Source: Octopus vulgaris | Taxonomy: Eukaryota | DNA: 64,000 bases | Assembly: GCA_951406725.2 (NCBI GenBank) | Contig: OX597826.1 | Coordinates: 27,466,001-27,530,000, forward strand | Reading direction: 5' to 3' | The notes under the pieces: generated by a model | What the model saw: only the letters and a program-made list of their open reading frames with translations | What the model was told of the DNA's origin: nothing | Database searches by the model: none | Translations under genes and position numbers: made by a program | In this document: one piece after another, positions 3,929 to 41,500 of the stretch | How the letters are laid out: the number at the start of each line of letters is the position of its first letter | Numbering within the stretch: position 1 is the stretch's first letter

Positions 3929-4650
3929 ACTGGCACTCATTCGGCTACGACGACGATGATTCCAGTTGATCAGATCAGCGGAACAGCTTGCTCTTGATAT
4001 TGTTCTACTCTGGATACTATGCCCGAAATTTTGGAGGGTGCCAGTCGATTAGATCGATCTCCGTAAAGATGAAAGGTAACGTCGACCCCCGCGGAATTTC
4101 AACTCAGAACATACAGACAGACGAAATAACGCTAAGCCTTTCGCCCGGCGTGCTAACGTTTCTGCTAACTCACCGCCTTAATATTCTTTTCTACTCTAGC
4201 TACAAGGTCCGAAATTTTGGAGGAGGGGGCCAGTCAATTAGATCGACACCAGTACGCAACTGGTACTTGATTTATCGACCCCGAAAGGATGAAAGGCAAA
4301 GTCGACCGCGGCGGAATTTGAACTCAGAACGTAAAGACAAACGAAATACCGCTAAGTATTTCGCCCGGCGTACCAACGTTTTTGCCACCTTAGCCTGCTC
4401 TTGATATTACCGCGCCAATGGCTGAGTACTCCACAGACGTGTAACATTTACGTTGTTCTCAGGGAGATTCAGCGTGACACAGAATGTGACCAGGCTGTCC
4501 TTTTGAGATACAAGTACTACTTCTTTTTTGCAACTGACTGGATTTGCTCATGAAATATAGATACCTTGCAAAATACGCTGCCAGGATTCGCAATCATGAC
4601 CTTACTATCGTGGGCCGAACACCCTATCCATTCAGCCATGCCCTTTCACA
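3929..4650 (-). mobile_element. SINE family C, interrupted by the family B dimer
   Basis: Collinear with 36855-37172 once 4002-4408 is removed. Confidence 0.75.
4002..4391 (-). mobile_element. SINE family B tandem dimer with 17-bp target-site duplication
   Basis: Two units with a gagttcaaattcc B-box-like motif and cctttcatcctttcggggtcgataa core. TSD agc(t/c)tgctcttgatatt at 3985-4001 and 4392-4408. Confidence 0.85.
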
Positions 4651-4712
4651 TGTGCAGATATATGCACACATATATTGCAGTTATATTCTTGCATTCTATT
4701 ATTTTTTGTATT

Positions 4713-5469: not shown

Positions 5470-6235
5470 TTTGACTGTGGTCATACTGGAGGACCGCTTT
5501 TTAGTCGAAGAAATCGACACCTGGACCTATTCTTTGTAAGCCTGGTACTTATTCTGTAGGTCGCTTCTGGCGAACCGCTACATTACGGGGATGTAAATTC
5601 ACCAACATCGGTTGAGGTGGGGGACAAACACTGACTCAAACGTAAAAATACATATATATATATTATGATGTGTTCAGAATCAGTTCTACCGATGAGCATA
5701 GACGCATTTTTTATGCGGTAAGTGCGAAATCACAGGTGATATAGAACTAAATTCATTATATATATATATATATCTTTTGAAAATAAGCTGTACAAGGTTT
5801 CAGATAAGTGCTTTTATTATGAGAAATGTCTGAAACCTTAAGAAGTATTTAGAGATTCAATTACAGCGATTATATATTAGAGAGTAAAGGCAAGGAAAAA
5901 TTACATTATTAAAATCATAATAGAGATATGTCCATAATATAAATAGTATTGGGTTAATAAATACATATATAAAGTATAATTATGATTCTTAACAAATTTT
6001 AAATATTGTGATTTTTATGAGGTAATTTATGTGTATGTGTGTGTGTGGGGGGGGGGGGTATACAATGAACTTCTTTCGGTTTCCGTCTACCAAATCCACT
6101 CACAAGGCTTTGTTCGACTGGAGATTATAGCAGAAGACATTTGCACAATGTGCCTTAGGTGTTACACGGTGGGACTGAACCCGGAACCACACTGTTGGGA
6201 AGCAAGCTTCGTACCACACAGCCACGCCTGCGCCT
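5470..6235 (-). mobile_element. SINE family A split into a 3' half (5470-5635) and a 5' half (6065-6235) by inserted sequence
   Basis: Both halves are collinear with intact copies. The intervening DNA includes the 5682 hammerhead. Confidence 0.7.
5682..5748 (+). ncRNA. Type-I hammerhead ribozyme-like motif, CCGAUGA core variant
   Basis: Stem I agttcta/tagaact (7 bp). Core CCGATGA at 5689-5695. Stem II gcat...gtgc with an inner cgcat/atgcg helix. GAAA at 5726-5729. Stem III tcac-ag-gtga. UA site at 5740-5741. Confidence 0.75.
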
Positions 6236-16884: not shown

Positions 16885-16887
<3 letters not shown>

Positions 16888-18504
16888 TTGCGACCAAATT
16901 TTCAGAACGGCATTGTTTTCGTCAGAAAAGTAGATATAATTTTTTATCAAAGTTGTTTTATATTCTATAATTTTCACAGACAATAAATACAATAGTATTT
17001 GTTATTGTCCGAGATTTTGGTGTAATTTACGAGGATAATACAAAAGTTATGGATGATTTAGTGATATACTGCAAAACCCATGGCGGCCAAAATGATCAGA
17101 ATGGTTGCTTTTACTCCGTGTTTTAGTATATTTAACCGGCGAACTCTAATGTTTTGAATTTGTTTACGTGACGGTTCGTTAACTAAACATTAGTAAGAAT
17201 ATTTGCAGTGTACTTTGTTAATATAATGCCACTTACTCAGTTACCAATTCGTCAGCAGATTATTAAGCTTCGAAGGAAGGATAATTTAAGTATTGGATCT
17301 ATTGCAAAGATTGTTAAACAAGTCAAAAAGTGTTGTACACAGTATTCTTAAGGTCTACGATGATTGTGTTTCGTGTGAAGCAAGAAAGTTTACAGGTAGG
17401 CCAAGAAAAACGACCAAGAGAGAAGATCGTGCTATGGTAAAGTTGGTTAAAAAGGACAGATTTAAAACTGCTACTGCTGCTGTTTCTCGGATAATGAGCA
17501 TTGTATTGAAGAAAACTTTATCTCGAAAAACTGTGTCTCGTCGTTTAGTTGAACATGACCTACGAACAAGAGCACCTGCAGTGAAGCCACTGATCAGCTC
17601 CAAGAATAAAAAGTTTCGTCTCACCTTTGCAACCGAACATGTGTTGTGGTCTCAAACGGTGCATTTCAGTGATGAATCTAAGTTTATGTTATTTGGCTCA
17701 GATGGGAAAAGGTACGTTCGTAGAAAAGTAGGTGAAAAATTGTCACCTAAATGCCTTAAGACTAGTGTTAAATTCGGTGGAGGAAGTGTCATGGTTTGGG
17801 GGATGATATCTGGAGATGGTGTGGGCCCTTTGCTGCGATTACATGGAAAGGTAAATGCAGGAGTTTATAAACAACTTGTAAAAGAACATGTATTGCCTGT
17901 GCTGAGAAATTCAACTAAGCGACCACACATATTCATGCAGGACAATGCCCCATGTCACAAGGCTCAGGTGGTCGTGAACTTCCTCAAGGCTGAAAAGGTT
18001 ATTGTTATGGATTGGCTTGCTCAAAGCCCAGATCTCAATCCTATTGAAAATGTGTGGAATATTCTAGGAGAACGTTCGAAAGCCAGAAATCCTAAAACAA
18101 CTGAGCAATTATGGAATGCCCTTCAGGAAGAATGGAATAAGATCACCCAGCAAGAAATCGAAAATTTAATTTCCTCATGCAGTCGAAGATGTCAGAGTGT
18201 GATTGAAGCTAAAGGGCTTCACACTAAATATTGAATAATTCCAGTATTCTCTGTCACTTTTGATTATTCTGTTATTTTTTCAACCGTTCTGATCATTTTG
18301 GCCGCCATGGGTTTTGCAGGAAATCACTATATCATCCATACGTTTTGTATTATCCTCTCAAATTACACCAAAATCTCAGACAATACCAATCAATATTGTA
18401 TTTATTGTCTGTGAAAATTATAGAATATAAAACAACTTTGATAAAAACTTATACTTACTTTTCTGACGCAAACAATGCCGTTCTGAACATTTTGGCCGCA
18501 ACAG
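16885..18504 (+). mobile_element. Tc1-family DNA transposon, IR/DR type, near full length (1620 bp)
   Basis: About 223-bp terminal inverted repeats (16885-17107 and 18281-18504, roughly 90% identical by eye). Each has an outer and an inner direct repeat (cagttgcgaccaaattttcagaacgg / catggcggccaaaatgatcagaatgg). TA on both sides within (TA)n. Encloses a transposase ORF. Confidence 0.96.
17226..18234 (+). pseudogene. Tc1 DD34E transposase with one +1 frameshift near the N-terminus (about 335 aa if corrected)
   Basis: ATG at 17226 reads MPLTQLPIRQQIIKLRRKDNLSIGSIAKIV and joins ORF 17293-18234 (NKSKSVVHSILK...) if one A is removed from gttAAAcaag (17316-17318). Motifs: GRPRK, FSDESKF, SVMVWG, FMQDNAPCH, SPDLNPIENVW. 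34 residues lie between the second D and the E. Confidence 0.93.
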
Positions 18505-37993: not shown

Positions 37994-38436
37994 CATCATA
38001 TATAACTGAACTCTACTTCTGAAATTTTCACCGACTGCAAACATGTATAAATATACCTTGAAGAATTGGAAAATTCCGCTCATACCTGATTAACGTGTTG
38101 ATTTCTTTCCAGCCTTATAATTTAAGGTCTAATGAAGAGAAACCTTTTACCTTTTTTTTTTACTTTTTACTCTTCACTTTATATATTTTAGTTTTTTCAT
38201 TTTTGTTTCCCGGTGTTAGTTTTCCGTTTTATAACCTTGCGTGTGTTGTATATGCTGCCTTCTCAGCCTTTTCACGTTTCTTCGTTATAATATGTGGCTT
38301 GTGCCTCATGAATGTTTGAGATATTGCGCAACATATGAAAACTATTAATACCAGAAACATGTTTTGTGTCCTTTAAATACACACATATACACATATATGT
38401 ATATATATGTCATAGATATTATATGTATTATATATA

Positions 38437-38520
<84 letters not shown>

Positions 38521-38944
38521 ATATATTATATTATATAAATGCGTGTGTGTGTGTGTGTATATAACAAAAGTGGGGGTATAATCTCATGAGGAAAATTATC
38601 GGCAAATTTGTTATTGAAAATGCACCAAAATTTGAAAAACTTGTAATATGTTTTAAAATTAATTTATTTACATATATACCAAACTTGTTTCAACAATATT
38701 ATTTCGTTTATTAATGGTAAAAATTTAGAATTATGAATTATAAAAATATGCTTAAAAGTTTCAATGTTCACAAGTTTATACGTTAATAACAGTCAATAAT
38801 ATATAAATCTATGGATCAACTTTTTTAAATGTAAAAAAATTCAATAGTGTTAGTTGTGGTTGACAAGAAATGAATATCATCAAATTTTCAGTCATACTGA
38901 GTTACGAGGGAGAAAAACAAGGGAGAAATGAAGATAGTAAAAAT

Positions 38945-39173
38945 AGGGGATTTGGTTTACAGTTTCTTTATTCTCTTTCCGTCGTGAGCAGGAACTTTCA
39001 CTTGTAACGGTGTTTTTTTTTTTTTTTTGTAATCCTGTGTGTTTATTTTTTCCGGGAACGGATCTGATTTTTGATTCGTTAAAGTACTGGTGACGTTTGA
39101 TTTTTCTGGTGGTCAAGCTGGTCATACTGCCTGATTAGAAAGAGAATCACAGAAACTGTAAACCAAATCCCCT
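38945..39173. repeat. Inverted repeat with ~35-bp arms
   Basis: aggggatttggtttacagtttct.t.attctctttc (38945-38979) versus gaaagagaatcacagaaactgtaaaccaaatcccct (39138-39173). Confidence 0.8.
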
Positions 39174-39400
39174 TTTTATCTATCTATCTGTCTGTCTCTC
39201 TGTCTATCTATCTGTCTGTCGGTGGGGCGATAGAATGGTTGTATACTGTCAATCTAACAAGAACGTGACAGTAGGGGGTACACCACCGTTGTATAGCCCT
39301 AGGAGGCATCGAACGCCTCCTGACAGCTTCGACACATTTTTCCCTGTGCCCTTATATACATATACGAAGGAGACAAACACCCCCAACCGCCGGAACCGCA

Positions 39401-39446
39401 TCTAGGGACACCGTGTTTCAGGATCATTGTCCTTCATCGGCCTAGA
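39401..39446 (-). ncRNA. Mirror copy of the 39776 hammerhead-like motif
   Basis: Exact reverse complement of 39776-39821, in the left arm of the large inverted repeat. Confidence 0.75.
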
Positions 39447-39775
39447 GTAGCAGACACCGGTCGGCTGGTGATATTTGCCTGGACTTCGTATCTGTATATA
39501 TGTAAACTCAGTGAAGTTTATTCACTGATTATCAAAATAAGAAATATTGAATTTCTAAATCTCTCGTAGAGACATGTACGGTGGTGGGGCGATAGAATGG
39601 TTGTATACTGTCAATCTAACAAGAACATGACAGTACACCACCGTACATGTCTCTACGAGAGATTTAGAAATTCAATATTTCTTATTTTAATAATCAGTGA
39701 ATAAACTTCACTGAGTTTACATATATACAGATACGAAGTCCAGGCAAATATCACCAGCCGACCGGTGTCTGCTAC

Positions 39776-39821
39776 TCTAGGCCGATGAAGGACAATGATC
39801 CTGAAACACGGTGTCCCTAGA
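39776..39821 (+). ncRNA. Type-I hammerhead ribozyme-like motif, CCGAUGA core variant
   Basis: Stem I tctagg/cctaga, CCGATGA at 39782-39788, stem II agga-caatga-tcct, GAAA, stem III ca-cgg-tg, GUC site at 39813-39815. Confidence 0.75.
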
Positions 39822-40241
39822 TGCGGTTCTGGCGGTTGGGGGTGTTTGTCTCCCCTTCGTATATGTATATAAGGGCACAGGGAAAAAATGTGTCGAAGCT
39901 GTCAGGAGGCGTTCGATGCCTCCTATGGCTATACAACGGTGGTGTACCCCCTACTGTTACGTTCTTGTTAGATTGACAGTATACAACATTCTATATATAT
40001 ATATATATATATATCTACAAATATATCTATATGTACACGCAGACATATAAATGTATGCATGTAGGTATGTATGTGTATATGTATGTATATATAATGATAT
40101 AATTATAATGGGCAAAGCCGTGTAAACATCAACTTCTTAATGAATACATAGTGCAGCAGGTTGCATAACGTTATACTTGTCCGTCGAACCGTCTGTTTGT
40201 TTGTCTGTCTGTCTATCTACTGTCTATCTATCTATCTATCA

Positions 40242-40302
<61 letters not shown>

Positions 40303-40697
40303 ACTATCTATCTATCTATCTGTCTGCCTGTCTGTATGTCTGTCTGCCTCTATGTATGTACCTGTTTGTCTCTTTGTCTGACTGTCTGTCTATCTGTCTG
40401 TCTGTCATTTCTGTCATTCTACCGATCTATCTCTCTGTGTATGTACTGTATAAACACATTCATACATATGTATTTGGAGAGAGGGAAAGAGAAAGAGGAA
40501 AGAGAGAGAGACAGACAGACAGACAGACATACGAACGGGCATACAGATAAAATGGTAAATAGATATAAACAGACTGAGTGACAGACAGACAGATAGAAAG
40601 ACAGACTGACAGACAAACTGACGCACAACAGACAGACACATGGACAGACAGACAGACAGACAGACGGACAAACAGATAGACAGTCAGACAGACAGAC

Positions 40698-40789
<92 letters not shown>

Positions 40790-41374
40790 GGATAAACATA
40801 CATATAACGTTATATAAGTTGTACTAATCTATTTTGCTGTGTATATTCATTAACAAGTTTGATGTTTGCGTGCGTGTGTGTATCCATCCCAATCCATTCG
40901 TTTGACAGCCATCAGCTGGAAATATCTATCTAATCAGTAAACTAATTAAGAAATTAATTAATTTAGACCACTTTGATTATGAATTCCGAATAAGATTTTG
41001 TCCAATTCCACAAATATATTCATCTTGTGTCCGTGCTGCCATTTTACCCAATCAGTTACCAAACTATCCACTCTAATTCCAATCTGGACAGAGTTCAAAT
41101 CCATCAGATATATCACGTGTGTGTATGTATGTGTGTGTAGGTGTGTGTGTGCGTGTGCGTGCGCGTGCCTGTGTGTCTGTGCGTGCGTAAATGTATAAAT
41201 ACTTATGGGCCTATATACATCTATGAATGTATATACACATTCACTAACACATACACTTAGATAATATACATGTATGTGTATGTATTTATATTTATGAATG
41301 CAATAATGAATAGGAACATATATGTATACACATACACAGACATATACTGTATATAGGCGATGTGTGCTTACCAA

Positions 41375-41500
41375 CGACATGGGTCCGGGTTCAGCCACTC
41401 TGCTTGGCACCTTGAGAAAGTGTCTTCTACTATAGCCTTGGTCAGACCAAAGCCTTATGACTGGATTTGGTAGATGGAAACTGGAAGAAGCCCGTCGTAT

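What the first reader, a model, noticed from the sequence alone, without database searches (positions are those of the whole stretch)
39221..39994. 362-bp hammerhead monomer (retrozyme-like) frozen as a 1.15-mer plus snap-back inverted copy
Seen: the sequence at 39221 restarts at 39583 (period 362 bp), runs ~53 nt, then turns into a near-identical inverted copy (39636-39994). Each arm holds one type-I hammerhead fold and there is no credible ORF. Known: animal non-LTR retrozymes and Penelope-like (PLE) pLTRs carry type-I hammerheads, occur as partial tandem or inverted repeats, and can yield circular RNAs of a few hundred nt. Inference: this is a non-autonomous ribozyme retroelement reverse-transcribed from a circular or multimeric RNA. 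It may be an undescribed family in this lineage.
Basis: partly seen in the sequence, partly recalled or inferred. Interest (0 to 1): 0.85.

Follow-up and report, generated by a model that had tools for sequence, protein, structure and literature searches.

The report
Hammerhead repeat with Penelope-style mirrored insertion
A 362-base non-coding unit with a variant hammerhead-type RNA fold sits here as 1.15 copies plus a mirrored copy; it belongs to a many-variant repeat family, was likely pasted in by a Penelope-like retrotransposon, and this copy's ribozyme is predicted to be folded shut, so it is a new variety of a known kind of animal repeat (retrozyme-like).

Summary
Observation confirmed: 362-bp period (52/53 match), a head-to-head inverted arm (7 differences in 357 bp), one type I hammerhead fold per arm, no ORF with a Pfam hit. 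The unit folds as a rod closing at the predicted cut (z -7.2). It is a repeat family: 1986, 1529, 135 and 29 contigs laid in 4 of 4 runs, each with the end-to-start join. The layout (partial tandem, inverted 5' copy, short tail, ends in an AC-rich loop, microsatellite target) is the published signature of Penelope-like insertions, so the inversion is ordinary for that machinery. With one hammerhead per orientation this locus cannot release a monomer. Cleavage, circles, expression, the partner element and the locus's own junctions are not shown. The scan holds no sequence look-alike, but 50 hammerhead/retrozyme notes in at least 25 other genomes. Verdict: retrozyme-like variant; interest 0.45.

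The parts
39221..39582 (-). One full 362-nt unit (arm 1); RNA sense is the - strand; 45.6% GC; folds as a rod closed at the predicted cut
   Evidence: end-to-start join in 4 of 4 runs
39583..39635 (-). 53 nt of a second unit in tandem (5'-truncated copy in RNA sense)
   Evidence: 52 of 53 identical to 39221-39273
39636..39994 (+). Inverted arm (arm 2), head-to-head with arm 1, 0.99 unit, ends 9 nt short of arm 1's end
   Evidence: 7 differences from 39230-39586
39401..39446 (-). Type I hammerhead fold, U4C core starting at 39440, predicted cut 39407/39406
   Evidence: none of 39 listed substitution rows falls here
39776..39821 (+). Second, identical hammerhead fold, core starting at 39782, predicted cut 39815/39816
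39636..39644 (.). 9-nt switch point: readable both as the continuation of arm 1 after a 7-nt loss and as the start of arm 2; complementary to 39578-39586
   Evidence: DNA hairpin with paired 3' end, -15.8 kcal/mol for 39560-39644
39221..39243 (-). AC-rich, mostly unpaired stretch holding both 3' ends (unit positions 177 and 186 after the cut); 39221-39229 is a 9-nt tail present on one arm only; likely priming region
39178..39220 (.). TCTA/TCTG microsatellite, left target flank
   Evidence: sequence
39992..40014 (.). (TA)n run, right target flank, 3-nt overlap with the end of arm 2; no target-site duplication of 5 nt or more found

Best explanation
This is a copy of a 362-nt non-coding, hammerhead-bearing repeat family (retrozyme-like) that was likely inserted in one event by the reverse transcriptase-endonuclease of a Penelope-like element acting in trans. 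Inferred steps: the enzyme nicked a simple-repeat target, primed inside the unit's AC-rich loop about 180 nt downstream of the hammerhead cut site, and copied 1.15 units from a more-than-unit template (an uncut tandem transcript or a ligated circle; not distinguished). The mirrored arm was then made from the same template molecule, most likely by the cDNA end folding back on its own 9-nt complement (about 55%), otherwise by the second target end priming 9 nt away and the two cDNAs annealing at that 9-mer (about 35%). The copy is predicted to be a dead end: one hammerhead per orientation cannot release a monomer, a read-through RNA would form a 357-bp hairpin, and this allele's core is predicted to pair with loop III. 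A natural one-letter-shorter allele is predicted to work as a double hammerhead in tandem precursors and is the likely cleaving form, if any cleaves.
For: Shown: geometry; hammerhead descriptor beyond chance; circular unit -134.5 kcal/mol, z -7.2, 0 of 100 shuffles as stable, rod closing at the cut, antisense weaker at z -3.8; 1986/1529/135/29 contigs laid and join 39582->39221 in 13/7/2/3 contigs of 4 of 4 runs; no listed substitution in 39398-39468 (P 0.03 for the 46-nt motif under random placement of 25 sites); both arms carry the same letter at all 25 family-variable substitution sites, including two (39349, 39397) where all laid depth in all 4 runs reads otherwise, which points to one template; both 3' ends lie in the unpaired, AC-richest stretch of the unit. 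From papers: partial tandem + inverted 5' copy + one-sided tail + microsatellite bias are PLE hallmarks (PMC8557442; PMC3846280); a purified PLE enzyme nicks AT-rich DNA, extends both strands, starts inside an AC-rich stem-loop and uses uncut RNA (PMC11167929); animal retrozymes are 150-450-bp, <50% GC units proposed to ride on PLEs (PMC7229834; 10.64898/2026.07.22.740005). Predicted: allele folds.
Against: Core is not canonical (U4C, A10.1-U11.1); no Rfam hit; U4C lowers activity in vitro (PMC3088659). No two-sided compensatory change among 27 variant rows; of 14 rows at paired positions 8 keep and 6 break the predicted pair. No PLE RT/GIY-YIG in 129 frames of the window, so the partner is inferred only. 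No array of two full same-strand units was seen (contig pieces are under 160 nt). The tail is 9 nt, against 30-40 bp in described PLEs. No target-site duplication. The arms differ at one family-variable indel (39368). The locus's own junctions and private letters were not in the 4 runs.
Confidence: 0.75

Rival explanations
1. A fully classical, active non-LTR retrozyme: this allele self-cleaves in vivo (helped by tertiary contacts or protein), the 362-nt monomer is ligated to a circle, and the insertion is 1.15 turns round that circle.
For: Rod closes exactly at the cut; helix I 6 bp and helix II 4 bp match the canonical retrozyme-type architecture (PMC4209133); motif invariant in 4 runs; U4C still supports a viroid in vivo (PMC3088659); a PLE hammerhead cleaved only with protein (PMC11167929), which folding programs cannot model; arm 2 is almost exactly one turn long.
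Against: Helix III probability 0.00 in circle and tandem for this allele, core paired to loop III at p 0.99; the end-to-start join exists in DNA-labelled runs, so it does not prove circles; 8 of 9 predicted Xenopus retrozyme dimers did not cleave when tested (10.64898/2026.07.22.740005).
Confidence: 0.3
2. The sequence is only the terminal repeat region of an autonomous Penelope-like element, truncated on insertion, not a unit that moves on its own.
For: PLE-type layout; PLE pLTRs carry type I hammerheads, also as opposite-strand pairs 100-700 bp apart (PMC4209133); in run X13 several contigs share only about 100 nt around the priming region and run on into 134-255 nt of other sequence (table 7).
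Against: The repeat period is 362 nt and the same end-to-start join recurs in 4 of 4 runs, leaving no room for an ORF between repeats; no coding frame; helix sizes are canonical, not the PLE minimal type (helix II 7-8 bp).
Confidence: 0.12
3. The family is real but the inverted arm arose after insertion (DNA repair fold-back, gene conversion) or is an assembly or amplification chimera.
For: The junction and the two private letters were not seen in 4 runs; no reads of the source individual were available.
Against: The mirror stops at the element's end and does not mirror the flank; arms differ at 7 places, unlike a read-level palindrome; a second opposite-strand joint of the family, at another position, stands in X13 (1 contig); head-to-head inversions are typical of PLEs.
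Confidence: 0.08
4. The hammerhead is a chance or vestigial fold in an ordinary SINE/MITE/satellite-type repeat that moves by another route.
For: Two deviations from consensus; no Rfam hit; the isolated 61-nt motif folds no better than shuffles (z -0.6); no covariation.
Against: 0 of 20000 shuffled units meet the descriptor; motif sits at the tip of a z -7 rod; it is the substitution-free part of the family; the one indel variant in it makes helix III palindromic, the known dimer signature; no tRNA, no poly(A), no TSD.
Confidence: 0.07

Closest known systems
Metazoan non-LTR retrozymes (Cervera and de la Pena 2020, PMC7229834; e.g. 350-390-bp Mytilus and 330/350-bp axolotl units; Li, Clavereau and Pollet 2026, 10.64898/2026.07.22.740005)
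   Same: Unit size 362 bp, GC 45.6%, no ORF, head-to-tail join, type I hammerhead with short helix III, highly self-paired circle model, many copies.
   Different: Core has C at position 4 and an A-U pair closing helix II; the main allele here is predicted self-blocked (those circles are mostly predicted free to fold the ribozyme); only one hammerhead per orientation at this locus; head-to-head inverted arm ('inverted' does not occur in the main text of PMC7229834); cleavage and circles untested.
Endonuclease-positive Penelope-like elements and their insertions (Penelope/Poseidon, Neptune, Nematis, Naiad; PMC8557442, PMC3846280, PMC11167929)
   Same: Partial tandem, inverted 5'-truncated copy head to head with a short overlap at the junction, tail on one end, simple-repeat target, 3' ends in an AC-rich loop downstream of the hammerhead cut.
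   Different: No RT or GIY-YIG ORF; the duplicated 53 nt does not include the hammerhead; tail 9 nt rather than 30-40; hammerhead is canonical-sized rather than minimal; no TSD found.
Double (dimeric) hammerheads of newt/axolotl satellite repeats and ASBVd (as described in PMC4209133, PMC7229834, PMC3088659)
   Same: The minority allele has a fully palindromic helix III and folds as a double hammerhead in a tandem precursor while inactive as a monomer circle.
   Different: The allele in the window breaks the palindrome by one letter and is predicted locked in both forms.

Membership tests
Non-LTR retrozyme | Non-coding unit of about 150-450 bp, GC under 50%, no LTR/PBS/PPT | tested here: met
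   362 bp, 45.6% GC, longest frames 52/81 aa, no Pfam hit; PBS/PPT not searched separately
Non-LTR retrozyme | Type I hammerhead topology with helix I 6 bp, helix II 4 bp, short helix III | tested here: met
   architecture as in PMC4209133
Non-LTR retrozyme | Canonical catalytic core (C3 U4 G5 A6 N7 G8 A9, G12 A13 A14 A15, U16 H17) | tested here: not met
   Position 4 is C in both arms and no other letter is listed there in 4 runs; consensus as printed in PMC3088659; no Rfam hit
Non-LTR retrozyme | Multi-copy, units joined head to tail | tested here: met
   1986/1529/135/29 contigs; join 39582->39221 in 4 of 4 runs
Non-LTR retrozyme | At least two consecutive units each with a hammerhead (criterion for an active copy) | tested here: inconclusive
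   Not met at this locus (1.15 units); elsewhere not resolvable, contig pieces under 160 nt and no genome held
Non-LTR retrozyme | Highly self-paired predicted circle | tested here: met
   234 of 362 nt paired, z -7.2
Non-LTR retrozyme | Self-cleavage and circular RNA in vivo | not testable with these tools
   Only contigs were available; they cannot show ends or circles
Autonomous Penelope-like element | ORF with telomerase-like RT and GIY-YIG endonuclease | tested here: not met
   No such hit in 129 of 520 frames of 55 aa or more (the non-low-complexity ones) across the window
Penelope-type insertion | Partial tandem with adjacent inverted 5'-truncated copy, head to head | tested here: met
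   description in PMC8557442, PMC3846280
Penelope-type insertion | Tail on one end (30-40 bp in described families) | tested here: inconclusive
   One-sided extension present but 9 nt
Penelope-type insertion | AT-rich or microsatellite target | tested here: inconclusive
   Both flanks are microsatellites, but the whole window is microsatellite-rich and one locus gives no bias
Penelope-type insertion | Sequence shared with the pLTR/priming region of an autonomous PLE | not testable with these tools
   No host genome or repeat library held

The most novel reading that the evidence does not exclude
A retrozyme lineage caught carrying the full footprint of Penelope-type integration, which would be direct anatomical evidence for the so far hypothetical PLE-retrozyme partnership, and in which the ribozyme has become a switch: a U4C-core hammerhead fixed across several organisms, active only as the palindromic double-hammerhead allele, while the allele that dominates genomic DNA is self-locked and spreads as uncut RNA. 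At the boldest, the two private A-to-G changes (RNA sense, both in A-U stem pairs) shared by both arms are A-to-I edits of the template written back into the genome.
Probability: 0.25. Interest if true: 0.72.

Novelty: new variant of a known kind. Interest (0 to 1): 0.45.

Why it matters
How animal retrozymes move is still a hypothesis (PLE enzymes in trans). This copy shows a retrozyme-sized unit with PLE-type ends and names a candidate priming site, so the hypothesis becomes testable in one family. Two natural alleles one letter apart, predicted open versus locked, give a clean test of whether cleavage matters for spread. A family-wide U4C core is missed by Rfam and by descriptors that demand the canonical core, so such families may be under-counted. 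It is not a new class of element.

Tried and rejected
Rfam: no hammerhead hit on 38000-41500 (E<=1, only miRNA-type hairpin noise), on 39720-39900 (E<=10) or on the window at gathering score. No whole genome held, so the genome-wide BLAST could not be run; no further copy in the window. Hammerhead pattern in JGI metagenomes: 0 matches. Sequencing runs: 20 of 24 listed rows hold part of the stretch (3 hold half the words or more; 10 studies; 4 organism labels), but no RNA holder listed; only 4 rows were laid, the other shares are not used as evidence. X10 and X13 are 'RNA?' guesses, so expression is not claimed. Summed contig depth is highest at 39234-39272 and falls leftward-to-rightward along the unit, as 5' truncation from a fixed priming site would give, but the tool states it is no copy number, so it is not counted. 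No place where many molecules begin or end (table 6; contigs cannot show this). Covariation: none found. TSD: none. tRNA/SINE head: ARAGORN 0 genes. A third loose hammerhead-like hit at 5689 fails the strict descriptor: rejected. Earlier notes: no look-alike by sequence or in this genome. Literature: searches for octopus or cephalopod with hammerhead/ribozyme, hammerhead with U4C (1 paper) and hammerhead with the variant core letters (1 unrelated listing) showed no description of this family; a 2026 Octopus vulgaris repeat annotation has 0 occurrences of ribozyme or hammerhead. These searches cover open-access text only; the supplement of PMC7229834, one supplement file of PMC4209133, the bioRxiv supplements and Lunse et al. 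2017 on PLE hammerhead variants could not be read and may list such a variant; Repbase/Dfam were not searchable.

Full report
1. Observation. The window is AT-rich animal-type DNA full of microsatellites and short interspersed repeats; its host was not identified (my impression of an octopus-like genome is recalled and untested). The finding is real. 39221-39273 recurs at 39583-39635 with 52 of 53 letters identical, period 362. 39636-39994 is the reverse complement of 39230-39586 with 4 substitutions and 3 indel events. There is no other copy in the window. A strict descriptor finds only these two sites in 64 kb, in 0 of 20000 shuffled units and in none of 100 shuffled windows. In RNA sense the arms point away from each other (head to head). 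No frame in the element has a Pfam hit; among 129 of 520 frames of 55 aa or more (low-complexity ones left out) only a Tc1 transposase passes cut-off.

2. The core has C at position 4 and helix II closes with A-U; Rfam does not detect it. The isolated motif folds no better than shuffles (z -0.6), but with its flanking stem it does (z -3.5), and the whole unit closed as a circle gives -134.5 kcal/mol, z -7.2, 0 of 100 shuffles as low, as a rod that closes exactly at the predicted cut; the opposite strand is weaker (z -3.8).

3. It is a family. 20 of 24 listed runs hold part of the stretch; I laid 4 of them on one unit. 1986, 1529, 135 and 29 contigs were laid, most of them 90-99% alike, and the join from the unit's end to its start stands in 13, 7, 2 and 3 contigs, in 4 of 4 runs, two of them DNA-labelled. 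So units are joined head to tail in DNA; the join is not proof of RNA circles. None of the 39 listed substitution rows lies in 39398-39468; for the 46-nt motif the chance is 0.03 under random placement of 25 sites (27 of 39 rows used, 11 X13-specific rows and one rare row dropped; the 0.004 for the 71-nt stretch is post hoc). Hence the U4C core is the family state in these runs, not decay of this copy. Against: no two-sided compensatory change was found, and of 14 variant rows at paired positions 8 keep and 6 break the predicted pair.

4. Two alleles. The only listed change inside the motif is one letter left out at 39411 (share of summed depth under 0.1% in X1, 13% in X4, 28% in X10, 68% in X13; depth is a rough measure and the RNA label of X10 and X13 is a guess). 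It makes helix III a perfect palindrome. Folding predicts: window allele, helix III probability 0.00 as circle and as tandem precursor, core letters 3-5 paired to loop III at p 0.99; shorter allele, inactive as circle (p under 0.01) but a complete double hammerhead in a tandem precursor (cross helix III p 0.84-0.99). That is the dimer mode described for animal type I hammerheads (PMC4209133, parts 1-2 of 4 read). These are secondary-structure predictions without tertiary contacts or protein; U4C lowers activity in vitro yet supports a viroid in vivo (PMC3088659, passages), and one PLE hammerhead cleaved only with its protein (PMC11167929, parts 1-2 of 4).

5. How it was inserted. Partial tandem, an adjacent inverted 5'-truncated copy, a one-sided tail and microsatellite targets are the described marks of endonuclease-positive Penelope-like elements (PMC8557442, passages; PMC3846280, passages, which also notes head-to-head junctions with short overlaps and proposes self-priming). 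Here both 3' ends (unit positions 186 and 177 after the cut) lie in or at the edge of an unpaired stretch that is the AC-richest 23-nt window of the unit, as the purified Anolis PLE enzyme starts inside an AC-rich stem-loop, nicks AT-rich DNA, extends both strands and uses uncut RNA. The flanks are a TCTA/TCTG run and a (TA)n run; no TSD was found. The switch point 39636-39644 is a natural stem of the unit: it reads as arm 1 continued after a 7-nt loss and is complementary to 39578-39586; as DNA the end folds back with its 3' end paired. Both arms carry the same letter at all 25 family-variable substitution sites and share two letters (39349, 39397) that no laid contig showed, so they come from one template (or were homogenised later); they differ at one family-variable indel (39368). 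The template had to span the cut site intact and exceed one unit: circle or uncut tandem RNA, not separable here. No PLE ORF lies in the window, so the partner is inferred.

6. What this copy can do. With one hammerhead per orientation it cannot release a monomer; two consecutive units are the stated criterion for an active copy (10.64898/2026.07.22.740005, parts 1-3 of 5). A read-through RNA would form a hairpin of about 360 pairs. It is best read as a dead-end record of one insertion event. Its own junctions were not seen in the 4 runs, so the assembly at this locus is not independently confirmed; the mirror stopping at the element's end and the 7 arm differences argue against an artefact.

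7. Hints, not findings. In X13, 10 A>G and 1 T>C sites in 39255-39304 are nearly absent from both DNA-labelled runs; the A>G sites come from two contigs of depth about 3.5 and look like hyper-editing of a transcript antisense to the ribozyme, but no DNA of the same animal was laid. The two private letters of this copy are both A-to-G in RNA sense within A-U pairs, compatible with edited template RNA or with chance. X13 also holds one opposite-strand joint at another position (39448/39505) and contigs sharing only the priming region.

8. Comparison and novelty. It works like an animal non-LTR retrozyme (PMC7229834, passages and parts 2-4 of 6; PMC7761336, passages) and meets the size, GC, non-coding, head-to-tail and fold criteria, but fails the canonical-core test and is untested for cleavage and circles, so I file it as a retrozyme-like variant with a Penelope-type insertion rather than a plain member. 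PLE mobilisation of retrozymes is proposed in those papers from co-occurrence and pLTR similarity; a unit showing the insertion anatomy itself is useful but expected. My searches (passages of PMC13282606) showed no description of this family or of a U4C retrozyme family, but key supplements, one key paper and repeat libraries could not be read. The scan's notes hold no sequence look-alike, 50 hammerhead/retrozyme notes in at least 25 other genomes and one similar inverted-head layout without ribozyme; these are unchecked and were not used as support.

9. Verdict.

Noticed in passing
window 38932-38980 and 39135-39185: A pair of about 48-bp inverted repeats (about 85% alike) enclosing about 155 bp, immediately left of the element; its right end runs into the TCTA microsatellite. 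Possibly a MITE or another head-to-head insertion.
   Followed up: partly
window 17290-18234 (+), with 16887-17107 / 18281-18502: Open 314-aa Tc1/mariner transposase frame (PF01498, PF13358) flanked by 222-bp inverted repeats 91% alike: a fairly young DNA transposon.
   Followed up: partly
window 40220-40373 and 40630-40800: Long TCTA/TCTG and AGAT/AGAC runs in opposite orientation about 270 bp apart, forming an inverted microsatellite pair right of the element.
   Followed up: no
window, e.g. 1235-1395, 1527-1673, 4053-4390, 4392-4675: At least four families of 150-300-bp interspersed repeats, 70-88% alike, many copies each (149 self-hits); likely SINEs, not classified.
   Followed up: no
run X13 laid on window 39255-39304: Cluster of 10 A>G changes on the + strand in two low-depth contigs, nearly absent from DNA-labelled runs: possible A-to-I hyper-editing of an antisense or hairpin transcript.
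   Followed up: partly
run X13 laid on window 39252-39253 and 39535-39537: Contigs that share only the roughly 100 nt around the priming region and continue for 134-255 nt into other sequence: related families or the autonomous partner (table 7).
   Followed up: no
window 5689-5741 (+): Loose hammerhead-like match with the same C at core position 4; fails the strict descriptor, probably chance.
   Followed up: partly
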